In this document: one piece after another, positions 3,620 to 57,654 of the stretch
Numbering within the stretch: the stretch's first letter is position 1
How the letters are laid out: each line of letters starts with the position of its first letter
Source: Eledone cirrhosa
Lineage: Eukaryota
DNA: 64,000 nucleotides
Direction: 5' to 3'
Assembly: GCA_964016885.1 (NCBI GenBank)
Contig: OZ024764.1
Location: forward strand, 16,120,001-16,184,000
Program-made: the position numbers and the translations under genes
The notes under the pieces: model-generated
The model's input: the letters and a program-made list of their open reading frames with translations, nothing else
The model's database searches: none
What the model was told of the DNA's origin: nothing

Positions 3620-3684
3620 TCTATCTATATCTCTCTATATATCTTCTATTTCAGCTTGGAAGGAAACGGTACAAAACTACAGAG

Positions 3685-3738
3685 ATGGCGGATGATTTTG
3701 ATGTGGAAGCTATGCTGGAGGCTCCGTATAGGAAAGAA
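3685..3738 (+). CDS. RBM39: RBM39/CAPER-like splicing factor, first coding exon (exon starts at 3655 with 30 nt of 5'UTR)
   Basis: Translates MADDFDVEAMLEAPYRKE, matching the conserved RBM39/RBM23 N-terminus (human RBM39 MADDIDIEAMLEAPYKK). Acceptor tcttctatttcag ends at 3654; donor GAA|gtaagc at 3739; phase 0. Confidence 0.93.
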
Positions 3739-8453: not shown

Positions 8454-8881
8454 CGTGTGTGTGTGCGCGCGCGTGTGTGTATATACAATGTATATACATC
8501 ATGTGTTATAGAAAATATCTTTTTCAAAATTAAGAAAATAAATTTTTCTCTATGATAAATACAACTCATAATTTTGTGATGACCCAGGTTCATTAGTATA
8601 TCCTGGCTTTGTCTCTTTTTATTTTGTTATATCTTAACATGCACTGGAACGAAGAGTATCAACTTTAATGAACCAAAACTGTAGTGATTTCTAGAGGTTG
8701 ACTGGGGAAATGGGACTTTCCGTATTTTTTTTCTGTTTTTTTTTCCCCCGTTGTCTTTGTCCTGTGCGCCCCTTATTTTGAATTTATATATTATATATAT
8801 GTATATATATATATATATATAATGATTACAATAAATACAAAAGTGACTGAAGTTCAAGTAATTTTCAATTCTTTTTTCCAG

Positions 8882-8903
8882 ATGTCCTTATTCAAACACT
8901 GGA
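8882..8903 (+). other. Candidate 22-nt frameshifting micro-exon of RBM39
   Basis: attttcaattcttttttccag|ATGTCCTTATTCAAACACTGGA|gtgagt in non-repetitive sequence; inclusion gives TGA in the next coding exon. Confidence 0.45.
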
Positions 8904-8977
8904 GTGAGTGTAGTTAAGGCCATGAGTGACGTTACTCACACACCCACAGCTCCTTTTACTACCACCAACTTAACCGT

Positions 8978-9008
<31 letters not shown>

Positions 9009-9155
9009 CCCCACTGTGTGTGTGTGTGTGTGTGTTCTTGTTTTGCTTTCTATTTATTCAGATCTCCCCCCCTCCAACTTCTCCCCCACCCAGTCACCAT
9101 TGTCACAATTCACACATTTAAATCTGGTTTGAATTAACTCGGTTAGTACTAGGGT

Positions 9156-9193
<38 letters not shown>

Positions 9194-9513
9194 ATTATAT
9201 AGCAAAGAAAAAAAAAAAAAAAAAAAAGGCAAACAACCCCAAAAGGATAATTGTCGAAAAATTATAGGAAAGGAAAGAGCATTCATGCAGTTTTCTCATT
9301 TATTGAGGGTTGATATATCAACTGTGGCCTGTGTCGTATTATCAACCCTGATATATCAACGTCGCAGTCGGAGCTATAAGGGTTAATGACGATAAAATGG
9401 TACTCTTGAAACATTCCATTAACCTCCTAGCCTCCTGTTCTCTATTTCTGTCTATATATCTCTCTCCCCGCCCCCTCCATTTTAAAGGTTGTTCAGGTGT
9501 TCATTTATTGCAG

Positions 9514-9533
9514 GTGCCGATTAAATCCTAAAG
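9514..9533 (+). other. Candidate poison exon of RBM39 (alternative starts at 9488 and 9497)
   Basis: Perfect donor AAG|gtaagt at 9534; pyrimidine tract 9421-9483; three tandem AGs. The 20-nt form reads VPIKS-TAA; the 37- and 46-nt forms frameshift. Confidence 0.55.
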
Positions 9534-9754
9534 GTAAGTATGTCACTAATAGCCACTCTGATATATGTTCCTACTACTACTACTACTACTATCCAGGTTA
9601 TACCTCTGCTGTCAATAAGGATGGGGCTATCTGTAGCCAACGATAATGAAGTATAGCCCCCAGCTGTGCTTATTAGGGTCATATGATTCATTACAACTCT
9701 CTCCTGTTGTTTTCTTCTCTCAGTTTATGTTCAGGGGTCAACTTCCACGAAGGT

Positions 9755-10426
9755 CAACTTTCCCCTTTTCGTTGTTCCAGGGTCAGTAAAATGACCAGTT
9801 GAAAAGTGGGGTTATTTTAGTCAATTTTTCCCCTTTTCGTTGTTCCAGGGTCAGTAAAATGACCAGTTGAAAAGTGGGGTTATTTTAGTGAACTTTCCCC
9901 CTTTTCGTTGTTCCAGGGTCAGTAAAATGACCAGTCGAGAAGTGGGGTTATTTTAGTGAACTTTCCCCCTTTTCGTTGTTCCAGGGTCAGTAAAATGACC
10001 AGTCGAGAAGTGGGGTTATTTTAGTGAACTTTCCCCCTTTTCGTTGTTCCAGGGTCAGTAAAATGACCAGTCGAGAAGTGGGGTTATTTTAGTGAACTTT
10101 CCCCCTTTTCGTTGTTCCAGGGTCAGTAAAATGACCAGTCGAGAAGTGGGGTTATTTTAGTGAACTTTCCCCCTTTTCGTTGTTCCAGGGTCAGTAAAAT
10201 GACCAGTCGAGAAGTGGGGTTATTTTAGTGAACTTTCCCCCTTTTCGTTGTTCCAGGGTCAGTAAAATGACCAGTCGAGAAGTGGGGTTATTTTAGTGAA
10301 CTTTCCCCCTTTTCGTTGTTCCAGGGTCAGTAAAATGACCAGTCGAGAAGTGGGGTTATTTTAGTGAACTTTCCCCCTTTTCGTTGTTCCAGGGTCAGTA
10401 AAATGACCAGTCGAGAAGTGGGGTTG
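9755..10426 (+). repeat. 68-bp minisatellite, ~10 copies, SINE-1 derived
   Basis: Unit aactttcccccttttcgttgttccagggtcagtaaaatgaccagtcgagaagtggggttattttagtg. Confidence 0.93.
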
Positions 10427-10952
10427 TCAACATTCTCTTCCCCTAAATGGTTGATGTTGATTCATTACTTAAATGGTGTCATTGATTTGTGTGAAAAATG
10501 TGTTGAACTACAAACTAAAATGGGTGAATTTATGGGGTTTTAAAAAGAAATTATTAGTGTTTTTTTTGTTTGTTGTTGTTTGGCAAATGGTTTGATCTGA
10601 GGCCCATGTTTTGAAACTGAAGCAGTGAGATGGTGGAAGGGACTAGCTCATGAAAGAGGGCTTTAGTTCACTCCCAGAAGAACTGACTTTGACTGCAACG
10701 ATACATTCAACCCATGACAGCATTGAAAACTGACTTACAACAATGTTTTAACCATTCGAAATGTTCATGGCTCTCTTTGCAACCTGGTCACACATACAAT
10801 TCCACTGTACCTCTGAAAATATCGGCAGATACCAGAAAATGGATATAAGCTTTTAGGTTGTTATTTTTGTTGAGTTATCACAGTCCATGACAAGATGGGG
10901 TGGATATCAAAATCTTTTAAAAGATGTTCATATGCATACATATATAAGTATG

Positions 10953-14673: not shown

Positions 14674-14811
14674 AGAGTTAAACAAGGTTCAATGAATACA
14701 TCAAAGAATGAGTTTTACAATAGATTGGAAGCACTCAACAGCAAAATGTTTTCCAGAGTTATTAATATTAATTCAAAATATTAACAAAATAGATATTCTT
14801 GTGATCAATTA

Positions 14812-14878
14812 TATTTTATTATACATATTTCAGAGGTACTGAGTTAAGTTCAACAGTACGTCCTCATCAGATAAAATA
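14812..14878 (-). ncRNA. Hammerhead motif, family A (left arm of palindrome)
   Basis: Reverse complement of the 14980-15046 motif. Confidence 0.65.
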
Positions 14879-14979
14879 AAATGATACATGACATACCCTG
14901 ACATGGTAGATGGTTAAGATTCTACTACCTTGATTGAATCTTAACCATCTACCATGTCAGGTTATGTCATGTATCATTT

Positions 14980-15046
14980 TATTTTATCTGATGAGGACGT
15001 ACTGTTGAACTTAACTCAGTACCTCTGAAATATGTATAATAAAATA
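14980..15046 (+). ncRNA. Hammerhead motif, family A (right arm of palindrome)
   Basis: TATTTTAT-CTGATGA-GGAC GTACTG..CAGTAC CTCT-GAA-ATATGTAT-A-ATAAAATA: 8-bp stem I, near-palindromic stem III. Confidence 0.65.
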
Positions 15047-15586
15047 TAATTGATCACAAGAATATCTATTTTGTTAATATTTTGAATTAATATTATATAT
15101 GTATGTAAAAGGTAAACAGCAAAAACAACACAATCGGTACAGTATATGGAAGGTATATATTAGATTAACGCTTGATATAGCAGGAAGATATATATCACCT
15201 ATTTGGGATAAACTACTGACATGCAGTGCTTTGGATGGCTCGGACCTGCTTATCATCAGGAGGTTATTATGTAACAACTAAGATAAACAACAGTCTTGTG
15301 CAACTATATATATATATTTATTAAAATAACAGATTAAAGTTTAAGCAAAGAATCGCTTAAGGGTGAAAGCAGTGATTTCTTTGCTTAAACTTTAATCTGT
15401 TATTTTAATAAATATTTGCTCTAGGCTTCTTATATATTTGATATATATTTATCCTTATCAAGCCCTCTTTGGATTTTAGTCTTCACATTTATTATTATTA
15501 CTATTATATATACATATATGTGTATGTGTAAAAAAGTACCCTGGTATGTTATATTTTTGTGCACAATGTCGTGTTTAAGGTATCTA

Positions 15587-17296: not shown

Positions 17297-17704
17297 CAGC
17301 TCACACCTATGCAGGTTTAGCTGGCCTCCTCCAAGGTATATCTCGTTGGAGGTATCTTGGGTAATTTAATGATAGGGACCCCACTCCCTATCATCTCATT
17401 TCTACAGCTGACTAAACTGGAGCAACGTGAAATAAAGTGTCTTGCTCAAGGAAACAACACATCACCTGGTCCGAGAATTGAACTCACAACCTTTTGATTG
17501 CAAGCCCAATGCTCTAACCACTAAGCCATATACCTTCATTGTGAGCACAACAATATCATAATTGTTAGACAACACACCTCCATATTAACCAGTTGTGATA
17601 TGATGTAGTTAACTTTGTCATCTACACCAGGTGTCACACACCTGACAGCTAGCTCATCTAATGATTGAAAAACACTTTCTTTATGTGTGTGTGTGTAATA
17701 GACA

Positions 17705-20557: not shown

Positions 20558-20601
20558 GACGACGTACTCAAGTCTGATGGAAGAGTTGAGAAAGAGAGAA
20601 G
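20558..20601 (+). CDS. RBM39: RBM39 second coding exon (44 nt, phase 0 to 2)
   Basis: Long U-rich tract ending ttttag at 20557; DDVLKSDGRVEKER+AG; donor AAG|gtaggt. In frame with the previous exon. Confidence 0.85.
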
Positions 20602-26109: not shown

Positions 26110-26466
26110 CTGTGTGTGTGTATCATTTCATCATCATCATTTTACGTCCCCTTTTCCCTGCTTGCAAGGGTGGGACGGGAACTGATTCTGGCTTGATTTC
26201 TACAGCTGGATGCCCTTCCTAACACCAACCTCATTTACAGTGTAGGCTGTGTGCTTTTTTGCCGTGGCACCTCCACGACCACTCTGCAGTGGAATGATAG
26301 GGACCCCAGTCCCTATCATCTCATTTCTACAGCTGAGTAAACTGGAGCAATGTGAAATAAAGTGTCTTGCTCAAGGAAATAACACATCACCCGGTCTGAG
26401 AATTGAACTCACAACCTTTCAATTGCTAGGCCAATGCTCTAACCACTAAGCCATGTGCCTCCATTG

Positions 26467-26514
<48 letters not shown>

Positions 26515-26517
<3 letters not shown>

Positions 26518-28133
26518 GAAGAGGCACCACTGATGCCCTCTTCCTTGTGAGGCAGTTACAGGAAAAGTACCTAGCTAAAAGTAAGCCACTCTACCTGGCA
26601 TTCGTCGATCTCGAGAAAGCCTTTGACAGAGTTCCACGTGCTGTAATCTGGTGGGCTCTTAGAAAACTAGGAGTAGATGAATGGCTTGTGAAAGCGGTAC
26701 AAGCCATGTATAGGGGAGCAGTCAGCAAAGTTAGGATTAGCAATGAGTATAGCGAGGAATTTAGCGTACAGGTTGGGGTCCACCAGGGCTCTGTTCTTAG
26801 CCCCCTCCTGTTCATCATTGTCCTGCAGGCAATAACGGAGGAATTTAAGACCGGATGCCCATGGGAACTCCTGTATGCTGATGACCTCGCACTTATAGCT
26901 GAATCTATGGTAGAACTAGAGAATAAATTCCAAACTTAGAAGCAGGGACTAGAAAGAAAGGGTCTCAAAGTCAACATGACAAAGACTAAGGTCCTTGTAA
27001 GTAGACGAGAAGACAGAACCCAGATCCCCTCAGGGAAATGGCCTTGCTCAGTATGTAGGAAAGGTGTAGGTAGGAACTCCATCCTCTGTCCCAAATGCAA
27101 ACAATGGGTACACAAGAGATTAGCGGGGTCTCAGGATGCTTAATTAAGAATGTAGGCTTCACATGCAGCAGCTGTGCTGGGACAGCAAGCAGCAAACAAC
27201 CACAGGAAACAAGTACCACCAATCTCTGGGAGGGCTCTGTAGAAACAGTAGACAGCTTCTGCTACCTAGGTGACTGAATTAGCAGCGGAAGTGGGTGTTC
27301 AGAAAGTACAATAACTAGAGTAAGAACGGGATGGAAGAAGTTTAGGGAACTACTGCCACTGCTAGCTGCAAAAGGCTTCTCCCTCAAAATGAAAGGCAGA
27401 CTGTATGATGCGTGTATCCGAACAGCGATGTTGCATGGTAGTGAGACCTGGGCGCTGAAGGTGGAAGACTAAGAAGATTAGAAAGAAATGAAGCCTGCAT
27501 GCTCCGATGGATGTGTAATAGTAATATACGCGAACGTCAAAGCATAAATGAATTGAGAGAGAGACTGAGCATAAGAGGAATCAAATGCTGCGTGCAGGTG
27601 AAGCGGTTGCGTTGGTATGGACATGTGATGCGTATGAAGGATGACAGCTGCATAAAAAGGTGCAGAGCACTAGAAGTCAATGGAAGCCGTGGAGTGGGGA
27701 GACCCAAGATGACCTGGGATGAGGTGATAAAAGCTGACCTTACCCAATTACACCTCTCAAAGACAATGACACACGACCGTGACTTCTGGCGTCACGCAGT
27801 AATACAGAGTACCCAAACTCCCATGGGTACAAGCTGAAGCATATAGACAATATGCCCCCACACCCCCACTGCAAGGTGGTCGTGGAGGTGCCACGGCAAA
27901 AAAGCACCCAGCCCACACTGTAGAGTGGACGTGTAGGCGCCACGAAAAAGCACCCAGCACTCACTGTAAATGAGGTTGGTGTTAGGAAGGGCATCCAGCT
28001 GTGGAAATCAAGCCAGAATCAGTTCCTGTATGAGCAAGGCATGGTCAGCCGACCAGACACTGCCCACAACAGGACAACCCGTCTAACCCATGCTAGCGTG
28101 GAAGAACGGACGTAAAACGGTGATGATGATGAT
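26515..28133 (+). mobile_element. 5'-truncated RTE-clade LINE (RT domain, C-terminus, 3'UTR, (GAT)n tail), disrupted
   Basis: AFVDLEKAFDRVPR, GVHQGSVLSPLLF, LLYADDL, MLRWMC, RLRWYGHVMR, GRPKMTW; stops and frameshifts; 5' end abuts a (TA)n tract. Confidence 0.92.
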
Positions 28134-41361: not shown

Positions 41362-42255
41362 ATATATACATTTTTATTTTTTTTTTCCTTTAGTGTATTA
41401 CTGGTACTGGCTGACATTGGCACTCGTTAAGCTCATTAATTACACATTTAAAGTTAATATCTTTCCTCTCATCATCCTAATATGTTTCTTGTAAAATGAT
41501 TTTTCAAATTTTCTGTTCGTTTGCAGGCAAGCTCTTTTTCGGAAATTTTTCTATAATCTTCGCCCCGTTTATAATTTTAATCTGATTTTGTTTTGTCTCA
41601 CAGGCTCTCCTTTAGGAATTCTCTTGTCATTTTGGAAATATTAAACTATATTTAAATATATTTGAATATATTTAAAATATTTTTATCGATATGTTTGAAG
41701 TTGTTCTCTTGTAGATTGACCCCCTGTAGTGGTTCCTTGATGGGAAAAACAGTTTGGCTTGAAAACAGATAGACTGACAGACAAATAGACTGACAGACAG
41801 ACAGATAGACTGACAGTTAGATAGACTGACTGACAGGAACATACAGATAGACAAGCTGACAGGGATAGACAGAGAGAGCCCTCCAAAATAAATAAGAATT
41901 GGTTTCGTTTCGTTTCAGTGAGTCCTTTCCTTTCCTTTTGCTAGGTTCTTCAAAAGGCCTGTCATACACACACACACACACACACACACAATACATATAT
42001 TGTTGTTGTTGTCATATTGTCTCTTCCTTCTTCTCCTCCTCCTCCTCTTCATTGCCAACTTGTGTCAGTCACATGGTTGTTTTTCCTGGCTTTTAATTCT
42101 TTTGCAGGGGTCACTTGGAAGGACTGGTTTTGTTTGTCACATGTCATATAAATGTTGTCTTTGTAGGGCTTCCCAGGGTCTGAGCAGGAGGCTTTAATAT
42201 GGAAAATAAACACTCGTTATGTACATCGAACCGAAAAAAGATTTTAATTATAAAG

Positions 42256-42295
<40 letters not shown>

Positions 42296-42435
42296 TAAAA
42301 AATAAAAAGGAAAAAAAAAACCCAACGAATTAACAAAATAAATATATAATTACATAATCTTTTCTCGCAATTTTTGGGGTTTCCTTCTAATGCTTCTGTT
42401 ATATATTGGACTTATAGGTGTCAATTTTGGTTCAG

Positions 42436-42490
42436 ATATTGGAGAGCGATGTGAAAGTTTTCTCATGCTAGCTGAGAACAAAGAGACCAG
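42436..42490 (+). other. Candidate 55-nt poison exon of RBM39
   Basis: ttttggttcag|ATATTGG...GACCAG|gtatgt; in phase 2 reads R-Y-W-R-A-M-TGA (42452-42454). Confidence 0.6.
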
Positions 42491-42659
42491 GTATGTGGGT
42501 TGAAGGAAACAACGGGGGTTGGTGGGGGCGGTTGTGACAGTTTGGCAACGGGGGAGGGTGGCTGCTGGGAAATGGGAGACGGGGTTGGATTGGAAGTTCG
42601 GGACTGCCCCTCACTCATTTGGTATTTTTCAAGGTTTTTTTTTTTTTGTATTCAAAAAA

Positions 42660-42699
<40 letters not shown>

Positions 42700-43691
42700 G
42701 CAGTAATAATAAAATATGAAGACTAGATTTCCATAATGCCTTTTACTATGTTTTAGCCCTAATACGTATTTCTGTGGTGCCATTGTTACATCATGATGCT
42801 ATAACACAATTACTGACATGACATCTTCAGACAGCCTCTTAGGTAATATGTGTAATCATATAATTTATTTCTAAATCACTGCAACCTTTTCATGTGGGGA
42901 GACAGATATACTTTCGATATACTCCATTCTCCCACTTCCATCCGCACCACCCTTTCTCTGTAAAGTTATGTTGGTACCACATAACATCCAGCCCAGACAG
43001 AAGTGGTCGTGTAGGTGTCGCGACAAAAAGCACTGTCTACACTATAAAGTGGTCGTGTAGAAGACATGGTAAAAAGCACCAGGCCCACACTGTAAATATG
43101 GTTGGCGCTAGGAAGGGCATCCAGTTGTGGAAAACCAGCCAGAAGTAGTCCTATACAAGTGAGACACGGTCACTCGACCAAACTTACCTCAAGTGGGACA
43201 AACCTGTCTAACCCATGCTAGCGTGGAAGATAGACATTAAACAGCGATGATGATGATGTTGCTACTTCAAGGGTCTGTTTACCATGTGAAGACAGAGCTT
43301 TGAAATAACAACATGGAATGCATAACAAGTGTATTACTTACGAGGCTGTCTGAAGACATTGTGCCTGTAACTGTGTCATAGCATCATGGCACTACAGAAA
43401 TGCGTATTATGGCTAATTATGTAATAAAAGGAATTATGGAAATCTAGCCATTGTATTTTATTGTTACTGTATGTGTACTCTGTCCTGTACTACCCATGTG
43501 ATACCACTCAGAATTGGAAGGATACATAAGACGTTGAATGCTTTTTCCTTATTACATCAGGATTTACTAATGTGAGTGATATAAAACACAGCCCCAGCAA
43601 GCAATTAGTAAATATTCTATAACACAAATAAATATATATATATATATATACGATATTAAATAAATGGAAACTATATTTATAAAACCATATT

Positions 43692-56258: not shown

Positions 56259-56318
56259 ACATCGAAGAAGTCGGAGTTCCAGTAGAAGTCGCAGTAACAG
56301 CCCTGTAAAGCACCGAAG
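56259..56318 (+). CDS. RBM39: RBM39 RS-domain exon (60 nt, phase 2 to 2)
   Basis: TACTAAC branch point, acceptor attttcag, reads (R)HRRSRSSSRSRSNSPVKHR, donor AAG|gtaggt. Phase-compatible with 20558-20601; RS dipeptides are expected at this position in RBM39. Confidence 0.87.
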
Positions 56319-56418: not shown

Positions 56419-57654
56419 AAATTTTTTTTACTTCCGTTGTCACTCTTGTCTTCATAAAAACAGTGACTATATTTCCGTTATTTATTTTCAGAATAATTGA
56501 TTATGAATAATTCTGAACCTCCAAATTTGTGGAAGAGGCACGGAGTTCTTCTTGGAATCCACGCCGGGAGGATAAATAAGGAAATTTCAGACTTTCTCAG
56601 CGTCAGCAGGAGAATGGTGGGAAAGGTCAGAAAGGAATTGGAAGATTCAGGATTCGACTACGAAGCAACATCAGAGAGGAAAACATGATCGACGATCTGA
56701 CGCCTTCAGAACTCCCGAGTTCATCGCTGAAGTTCAGGATATCATCATCAATGAACCTAGCAAGGCAATGCGTGCCATTGCAAGGGAGAAAGGCGTGGAT
56801 GAAAAGCTCATTAGGCTGGTGGTACATGAAGACATTCACTACGTTTCATACAAGATGAGGAAAGGGCAATTTCTGTCAAAGGCGATGCAAGAAAAGCAAC
56901 TGAAGCACGCAAAGAAGCTGATCAACAAGTTGAAACACCCACTGGAGCCAGACATGCTGTGGTTTTTCTCCGACGAGAAAAACTTCTGCCAAGACCAGAA
57001 GATCAACTCCCAGAACAACAGGTGGCTTGCTGTCTCATCCAAAGACGTGCCGAGTGTCATACAGACAAAGTTTCCAGCAACAACATTGGTCTTAGGTGTT
57101 GTCAGCAGTCAAGGTGACGTCATGCCACCTCACTTCTTCCCTGAGGGCCTCAAGCTGAACACCGATGGTTACATCCGCGTTCTGAGAAAGGTAGTAAAGA
57201 CCTGGATCGACCAGGTAGGCCGTACGTGTGGCAGCAGGACTCAGCGCCCTGCCATACCAGCCGAAAGACCCAAGCCTGGCTGTCAGAGAACTTCGTCGAC
57301 CACACTTCACCTGACATCTGGCCTCCCAGCTCGCCTGACTGCAACCCCCTCGACTTCTTTGTGTGGGGGCGCAGTGGAACGAGACACCAACAGATCTAGC
57401 TGCAATACGAAAGACGATCTGAAGGCCAGGATCACAAGTGCCTTTAGGGGCCTAAGTCGGGGGACAGTGACGAAGGCCTGTAGCCGGTTCCGAGGCCGTC
57501 ATTAAAGTCAATGGCGGGTCTATCGAGTGAGATCGAAAGAACAAGTCATGAAGACAAACTGACCCAAGGTTGATAAATATATCTTAAAAAATAAAACTAC
57601 TGTCTTATTTTTTCCTAGACAGTAATCTTGTGAACAGATATCGTCCGCACCCTG
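56419..57654 (+). mobile_element. Tc1/mariner DD37D (maT-type) transposon, disrupted
   Basis: WFFSDEKNF; after a frameshift near 57215, WQQDSAPCH..WPPSSPDCNPLDFFVWG with 37 residues between the last two Asp; stop at 56686; 3' end caccctg|TA; 5' TIR not seen. Confidence 0.9.

What the first reader, a model, noticed from the sequence alone, without database searches (positions are those of the whole stretch)
41370..42496. About nine 3' splice-site-like motifs stacked upstream of a 55-nt stop-containing exon
Seen: pyrimidine tract plus YAG ending at 41393, 41526, 41603, 41615, 41714, 41918, 41944, 42107, 42166 and 42435, rich in TTTG, mostly without a paired donor, ending at exon 42436-42490 (CAG|gtatgt; TGA at 42452). 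CAG|GCAAG (41524) and CA|GTGAGT (41916) overlap donor-like motifs. Established: RBM39 acts with U2AF/SF3B1 at 3' splice sites, its RRM2 is reported to bind UUUG-containing motifs, and decoy splice sites control intron retention in some splicing-factor genes. Inference: a U2AF/RBM39 sensor or decoy array.
Basis: partly seen in the sequence, partly recalled or inferred. Interest (0 to 1): 0.72.

Follow-up and report, generated by a model that had tools for sequence, protein, structure and literature searches.

The report
Stacked acceptors feed octopus poison exon
In an octopus gene for the splicing factor RBM39, a stop-codon exon that is spliced into RNA sits behind an unusually dense row of spare splice-acceptor signals, which likely helps the gene throttle its own output, a new layout of a feedback loop already known from humans and flies.

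Summary
The stretch lies in intron 3 of an octopod RBM39 gene. All 10 listed YAG sites exist; 6 score as well as the gene's real acceptors, more than chance gives (0 of 1000 shuffles; look-anywhere p 0.002-0.012). TTTG richness overall is not unusual. The exon is real but not 55 nt: contigs of one public run join exon 3 to an unlisted acceptor (AG 42416-42417) and 42490 to exon 4, giving a 73-nt exon with TGA at 42452. The same run holds unspliced RNA over part of the stack. Use of the upstream acceptors is not shown; each would also give a stop. In 10 of 11 RBM39 loci of other animals the intron after the first coding exon is long, mostly with spare acceptors (pooled about 2-fold enriched); some are conserved between relatives, and one stop cassette is spliced in. 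So this is a poison exon of a known RBM39 feedback type, in a different intron from human exon 2b and lacking its RRM2 site, probably with a multi-acceptor capture or decoy zone. Sensing by RBM39 or U2AF is untested.

The parts
3655..3738 (+). RBM39 exon 2, first coding exon (ATG at 3685, ends in phase 0)
   Evidence: sequence, acceptor at 3654, translation matches N-termini of RBM39 homologues
8860..9539 (+). Second, smaller candidate unit in intron 2: acceptors 8881, 9061, 9513, a 20-nt exon 9514-9533 with an in-frame TAA, donor GTAAGT at 9534
   Evidence: predicted from sequence only; no RNA laid
20558..20601 (+). RBM39 exon 3 (44 nt, ends in phase 2); its donor is the one joined to the poison exon
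   Evidence: its last bases form the loose end (compared)
41370..42166 (+). Stack of unpaired acceptors: strong 41393, 41526, 41603, 41918, 41944, 42107; weak 41615, 41714, 42166. Each would give a stop if joined to exon 3
   Evidence: unspliced contig over 42059-42249 in run X4
41765..41877 (.). GACA-type simple repeat inside the stack, not part of the signal
   Evidence: this segment accounts for the listed off-target matches among 261 in the genome (150 listed)
42262..42288 (+). Run of 27 A; possible internal oligo-dT priming site that can inflate unspliced cover upstream
   Evidence: sequence; effect is inference
42387..42417 (+). Branch-point-like CTAAT (A 42390) and the first AG after it (42416-42417): the acceptor used in RNA; weak by the model (-1.5)
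42418..42490 (+). 73-nt poison exon; TGA 42452-42454 after 12 codons; contains the listed AG 42435 and an ATG at 42465 in frame with exon 4
   Evidence: junction contigs on both sides in run X4; frame; single copy in the genome
42491..42496 (+). Donor GTATGT, joined to exon 4
56259..56318 (+). RBM39 exon 4 (60 nt, RS domain)
   Evidence: its first bases form the loose end (27 of 28 letters alike)

Best explanation
This is a poison-exon unit in intron 3 of octopod RBM39: a 73-nt stop-codon exon is spliced between exons 3 and 4, and the six strong unpaired acceptors upstream likely compete for the exon-3 donor so that the RNA would end up with a premature stop or stay unspliced, probably as negative feedback on RBM39 level. 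Shown: gene, exon, both junctions, stop, acceptor excess, unspliced RNA over part of the stack. Inferred: the single donor at 42490 pairs with exon 4; the 5' side is then resolved at the weak acceptor 42417 (73-nt exon), at an upstream acceptor (0.3-1.1 kb exon) or not at all (detained RNA); every route has a stop within about 60 codons of exon 3, removing the RS domain and all RRMs. Inferred from human data: higher RBM39/U2AF/U2 activity raises recognition of these sites, and decay or nuclear detention lowers productive mRNA.
For: Junctions 20601-to-42418 and 42490-to-56259 in contigs of run X4, not in X1 or X2; no processed copy of the exon in the genome. Acceptor excess. All 11 AGs tested give a stop. 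X4 holds contigs that run unspliced over 42059-42249 and 42326-42445 and 0.71 of the sampled words of 41370-42560 against 0.82 for X1-X3, which by inference needs cover well upstream of 42059. Other animals: 10 of 11 loci have a 1.0-1.9 kb intron after the first coding exon while the next intron is 58-108 nt in the 8 loci that have it; pooled strong acceptors 15 sense, 5 antisense, 6.9 shuffled; all 4 blocks conserved between L086 and L095 span an internal YAG, and contig L033 carries the stop cassette of L090 spliced in at 91% identity; L022 and L048 appear to enter at an internal acceptor and read on. RBM39 promotes its own poison exon through the 3' splice site in human cells (PMC10477243); Caper has PTC exons in flies (PMC10332324); competing sites mark decoy exons (PMC6097662, PMC7373989).
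Against: Use of any of the 10 listed acceptors is not shown; the one junction seen uses an unlisted, weak AG. RNA support is one run of unrecorded kind, one contig per junction. No cephalopod genome was available, so conservation of the stack is untested, and it has no sequence likeness to the other animals' introns, where the unit lies one intron upstream. Enrichment in those animals is modest: best single loci 5 and 8 of 200 shuffles, L076 and L077 have no scoring site, L095 and L098 are at shuffle level; a strict site test on L095/L086 gave 2 of 5 against 13 of 250. The used acceptor lacks the human RRM2 motif and no stable stem-loop covers the donor (z -0.1 to -0.2). The acceptor model rests on 12 sites.
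Confidence: 0.55

Rival explanations
1. The 73-nt poison exon is real and regulatory, but the upstream YAG sites are inert U-rich intron sequence kept next to it for other reasons; unspliced cover is nascent RNA captured at the A27 run.
For: No junction shown for any listed acceptor; region was picked after the fact; ordinary at a loose threshold; TTTG density not unusual; simple repeats have inserted in the stack; in human cells about 100 nt of flank suffices for RBM39 dependence (PMC10477243, section 12).
Against: Look-anywhere probability 0.002-0.012, local-composition shuffles never reach 6, and the densest acceptor window in 92 kb ends exactly at a proven poison exon; conserved internal acceptors in other animals. 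Unspliced contig 42326-42445 lies downstream of the A run.
Confidence: 0.28
2. The exon makes a split reading frame: the stop falls only 44 codons after the start, and ribosomes re-initiate at the ATG at 42465, in frame with exon 4, giving an N-terminally shortened RBM39 rather than decay.
For: ATG 11 nt after the stop, in frame with exon 4; start-proximal stops often escape decay (recalled).
Against: Poor start context (C at -3 and +4; sequence). No protein with this start found: 0 of 10 candidates (weak search) and 0 of 145 fetched homologues. Human exon 2b is also start-proximal and is decayed (PMC10477243). Does not explain the stack.
Confidence: 0.08
3. The exon and the stack are splicing noise in a 35.7-kb intron with no regulatory role.
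For: One run, no conservation test in cephalopods; most NMD isoforms in mammals are thought to be noise (passage in PMC3176834).
Against: Both junctions survive contig assembly, which drops rare forms; same gene and same RS-proximal region carry poison exons in vertebrates, flies and the unnamed animals examined here.
Confidence: 0.06
4. The sites are recursive-splicing points or trans-splicing acceptors that help remove a long intron.
For: Long intron; AG followed by GCAAGC at 41526; acceptors without donors.
Against: 0 of 11 AGs is followed by a GT consensus donor; the same AG|GCAAGC stands at the real last coding acceptor 91416; the junction seen is cis from exon 3; recursive sites are spread along an intron, not packed in 0.7 kb (recalled).
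Confidence: 0.03

Closest known systems
Human RBM39 poison exon 2b (PMC10477243; 73 bp per PMC11628860; conserved to Xenopus and zebrafish per PMC3176834)
   Same: Same gene, stop-containing cassette upstream of the RS domain, weak 3' splice site, same length (73 nt).
   Different: Octopod exon is in intron 3 (phase 2), the human one between exons 2 and 3; no N(G/U)NUUUG directly before the used AG; no stable donor-hiding stem-loop; preceded by six strong unpaired acceptors. Sequence homology could not be compared (human sequence is only in a figure).
Decoy exons in large retained introns (SF3B1 intron 4, OGT, ARGLU1, DDX39B; PMC6097662, PMC7373989)
   Same: Internal PTC cassette in a large intron of a splicing-factor gene, several competing splice sites, unspliced RNA beside it.
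   Different: Here many acceptors share one donor over 1.1 kb instead of several short paired cassettes or sites a few nt apart; the cassette is readily spliced; U2AF binding and decoy activity untested.
Drosophila Caper PTC exons (PMC10332324)
   Same: RBM39 orthologue in an invertebrate with poison exons and binding to its own RNA.
   Different: Passages read give no acceptor stack or intron position; autoregulation there is a proposed model.

Membership tests
RBM39/Caper gene | RS domain, two RRMs, RBM39 linker, UHM; conserved N-terminal peptide | tested here: met
   PF15519 over cut-off 24 kb past the window end; RRM exon 100% identical to an Octopus bimaculoides entry, all 120 listed hits carry PF15519; exons mapped
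Poison exon (AS-NMD) | Spliced in between two coding exons | tested here: met
   Both junctions in contigs of run X4
Poison exon (AS-NMD) | In-frame premature stop more than 50-55 nt before a later junction | tested here: met
   TGA 42452; 36 nt before the exon's own end but 96 nt before the next junction, with more downstream; the rule itself is recalled
Poison exon (AS-NMD) | Alternative: a skipping form exists | tested here: inconclusive
   Exons 3 and 4 join in frame and the close homologue P0123 runs straight through; the skip junction lies outside the stretch laid
Poison exon (AS-NMD) | Isoform stabilised when NMD is blocked | not testable with these tools
   needs perturbation data
Poison exon (AS-NMD) | Sequence conserved among relatives | tested here: inconclusive
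   No relative genome held; 0 exact 24-mer matches in metagenome contigs; no significant match in 80 other loci
Vertebrate RBM39 exon 2b | Lies between exons 2 and 3 | tested here: not met
   Junction comes from exon 3; a different 20-nt candidate occupies intron 2
Vertebrate RBM39 exon 2b | RRM2 site N(G/U)NUUUG directly before the AG | tested here: not met
   Absent at 42417; present within 22 nt of 3 of the other 10 AGs
Vertebrate RBM39 exon 2b | Stem-loop hiding the 5' splice site | tested here: not met
   Folds no better than shuffles, z -0.09 to -0.21
Vertebrate RBM39 exon 2b | Inclusion depends on RBM39 | not testable with these tools
   needs knock-down or degrader
Decoy exon (Parra/Conboy) | Several competing splice sites at an internal PTC cassette of a >1 kb intron | tested here: met
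   6 strong and 5 weak AGs, one main donor, 35.7-kb intron
Decoy exon (Parra/Conboy) | Host intron is retained | tested here: inconclusive
   Unspliced contigs over 42059-42445 fit retention, a long exon or nascent RNA
Decoy exon (Parra/Conboy) | U2AF binds the sites and their loss lowers retention | not testable with these tools
   needs CLIP and minigenes
Recursive splice site | Acceptor AG directly followed by a consensus GT donor | tested here: not met
   0 of 11

The most novel reading that the evidence does not exclude
RBM39 genes across animals carry a many-acceptors-one-donor trap that counts 3' splice-site recognition capacity: the layout, not the sequence, is conserved, and in octopods it has been rebuilt one intron downstream while a smaller copy persists at the old position, giving two tandem rheostats.
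Probability: 0.25. Interest if true: 0.75.

Novelty: new variant of a known kind. Interest (0 to 1): 0.45.

Why it matters
RBM39 feedback is of interest because it sets the level of a drug-target splicing factor, and it has been worked out only for one vertebrate exon with a single RRM2 site. An independently placed poison exon in an octopod, with an acceptor stack instead of that site, and a similar layout in other invertebrates, would show that selection keeps the loop while its wiring turns over, and gives a compact natural test of whether spare 3' splice sites act additively as decoys or sensors. If the stack is inert, the result is one more poison exon in a gene known to have them.

Tried and rejected
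No RNA holder listed by record; X4 was taken as RNA only because its contigs join distant exons. Protein searches for isoform peptides led nowhere: 0 of 10 candidates; uninformative: the chosen entry has a mis-modelled N-terminus; 8 hits; 7 run from the first coding exon into what looks like intron, 1 cluster of 4 stops after about 43 residues for unknown reasons. Exact 24-mer of the exon: 0 matches in metagenome contigs. Rfam: nothing in the region. RNA structure: no signal. Branch-point-like words are no more frequent than at real acceptors (3 of 11 against 2 of 12). L082 dropped from the insert count (my bounds gave 51 nt without a stop); L097 and L099 dropped as near-copies of L095 and L098; L091 not scored. 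Earlier findings: none. The 55-nt exon, recursive splicing, trans-splicing and a processed gene copy as source of the junctions were considered and rejected.

Full report
Gene context. The window is G000:C25:16120001-16184000 in a 3.0-Gb genome. It holds the 5' part of an RBM39 gene on the + strand: first coding exon 3655-3738, exon 3 at 20558-20601 and exon 4 at 56259-56318 join into one open frame; the RRM, linker and UHM exons lie beyond the window. The RRM exon is 100% identical to an Octopus bimaculoides entry, so the animal is an octopod by inference. The finding lies in the 35.7-kb, phase-2 intron 3.

The observation. All 10 listed sites are YAG ends. No published splice model was on hand, so I trained a simple one on the gene's 12 coding-region acceptors. 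Six listed sites reach the median real acceptor (5.5, leave-one-out); four do not, among them 42435. Background is 0.5 such sites per kb over 144 kb; 0 of 1000 dinucleotide shuffles and 0 of 1000 block shuffles reach six; the opposite strand has one. The top-scoring other windows fall on a tandem repeat at about 9.7-10.4 kb; with tandem repeats masked (36% of 92 kb) the next best window has three. Placing the 36 strong unmasked intronic sites at random puts six within 715 nt in 18 and within 1127 nt in 116 of 10,000 trials. At the loosest threshold the region is ordinary. TTTG (14) and the RRM2 motif (7) are reached by 6% and 13% of 417 gene windows; TTTG does sit in 4 of 6 strong tracts against 6 of 30 other strong intronic tracts (p 0.04) and in 7 of 11 cluster tracts against 1 of 12 real acceptors (p 0.009), both after the fact. 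Joined to exon 3, all 11 AGs tested give a stop at or before 42452, which most intron sequence would also do.

RNA. Four runs of one study hold the stretch, none on record as RNA. Three were laid on 41885-42600. X1 and X2 behave as DNA. X4, from another sample, has one contig whose loose end before 42416 is the end of exon 3 and one whose loose end after 42490 is the start of exon 4 (27 of 28 letters alike; compared). The exon in RNA is therefore 42418-42490, 73 nt, entered at the first AG after a CTAAT branch-like word; the TGA at 42452 follows after 12 codons. The exon is single-copy. X4 also has unspliced contigs over 42059-42249 and 42326-42445, the second running into the exon. Its 0.71 share of sampled words against 0.82 for X1-X3 suggests cover over much of the unlaid upstream part (inference). 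Contigs cannot tell a long exon from a retained intron or nascent RNA primed at the A27 run, nor levels.

Other animals. A scan of metagenome contigs with an 11-protein alignment kept 80 of 262 RBM39-like loci. 31 show the N-terminal motif; 17 read through, 14 do not. I class 6 of the 14 as genomic and 8 as transcript-like, from the absence of other introns: 6 of 25 transcript-like contigs carry stop-containing sequence right after the first coding exon (L022, L023, L033, L048, L060, L077), L070 keeps the next intron, L082 is unresolved. In 11 loci where this intron is visible, 10 have 971-1879 nt (two cut by the contig start), against 58-108 nt for the next intron in 8; six have exactly one consensus donor, two none, three have 2-4; pooled strong acceptors are 15 sense, 5 antisense, 6.9 shuffled, with no locus as dense as the octopod one and two with none. 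Between L086 and L095 all four aligned blocks span an internal YAG; L033 contains the cassette that L090 flanks with CAG and GTAAGT, 91% alike over 88 nt; the minus-strand control gave no hit and the octopod stack matched only by low complexity. A stricter site test was weaker, 2 of 5 against 13 of 250. These loci group on the arthropod side of a tree with moderate support. So a long intron with spare acceptors and a late stop cassette recurs in RBM39, but in intron 2; the octopod has a small predicted unit there (8881, 9061, 9513; 20-nt exon with TAA) and the large one in intron 3.

Mechanism. Shown: a stop-containing exon is spliced in, behind a non-random acceptor stack with one main donor. 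Inferred: the spare acceptors compete for the exon-3 donor, giving longer poison exons or stalling the intron, so that stronger 3' splice-site recognition lowers productive mRNA. That RBM39 itself drives this is carried over from human work.

Literature seen. PMC10477243: abstract, passages, sections 12 and 15 whole, supplement search; the exon 2b sequence is only in figures and one supplement was unreadable, so homology could not be compared. Passages only: PMC10332324, PMC4737145 (two retained RBM39 introns listed), PMC6097662, PMC3176834 (two RBM39 NMD cassettes), PMC13247117, PMC11628860 (73-bp exon), PMC13100119 (no RBM39), PMC6547761, PMC7373989. That human exon 2 is the first coding exon, the 50-55 nt rule and start-proximal escape are recalled. 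Searches listed no paper on a cephalopod RBM39 poison exon or an RBM39 acceptor stack (76: 0 papers; 79: 1 review on RNA editing, listing only); most subscription papers are not in the library.

Verdict. Observation partly confirmed, exon corrected and supported by junctions, interpretation partly supported. It works like vertebrate exon 2b and like decoy exons but fails membership in exon 2b on position, RRM2 site and stem-loop. New variant of a known kind; interest 0.45.

Noticed in passing
window 8860-9539: Second candidate poison unit in intron 2, the position used in other animals: acceptors 8881, 9061, 9513, a 20-nt exon with in-frame TAA and a GTAAGT donor.
   Followed up: partly
window 9700-10430: Tandem repeat of about 48 bp whose unit contains a strong acceptor-like word, directly after the 20-nt candidate; gives up to 11 strong sites per window. 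Probably a satellite, but its position is curious.
   Followed up: partly
window 42465: ATG 11 nt after the poison stop, in frame with exon 4; weak context.
   Followed up: partly
window 42418-42490: Same length (73 nt) as human exon 2b though in a different intron; likely coincidence.
   Followed up: partly
window 42693-42848 and 43332-43477: Inverted repeat (two arm pairs of 56-57 nt, 82% complementary) starting 200 nt after the poison-exon donor; possible double-stranded substrate for editing.
   Followed up: no
window 26430-27840: Broken LINE reverse-transcriptase remnant (PF00078); related pieces recur through the window.
   Followed up: partly
window 56576-57505: 309-codon open frame that looks like a transposase remnant by eye, 260 nt after exon 4; no Pfam match.
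   Followed up: partly
window 17467-17534: Weak tRNA match on the minus strand, part of a repeat also seen near 26400 and 40620; likely a tRNA-derived SINE.
   Followed up: no
window 14745-15095: Long near-perfect palindrome seen by eye, MITE-like.
   Followed up: no
L086:1-1574 and L095:1606-3014: Internal acceptors and a terminal cassette conserved between two related unnamed animals while spacers diverge.
   Followed up: yes
L090:492-578 and L033:296-380: Conserved 84-nt stop cassette seen unspliced in one contig and spliced in in a relative.
   Followed up: yes
P0149, P0154-P0156: RBM39 N-termini that stop after about 43 residues on 2.1-2.3 kb contigs of an unnamed animal; could be poison isoforms at the intron-3 position.
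   Followed up: no
P0121, P0001: Public Octopus bimaculoides RBM39 models lack the true N-terminal exons, so this region appears to be mis-annotated there.
   Followed up: partly
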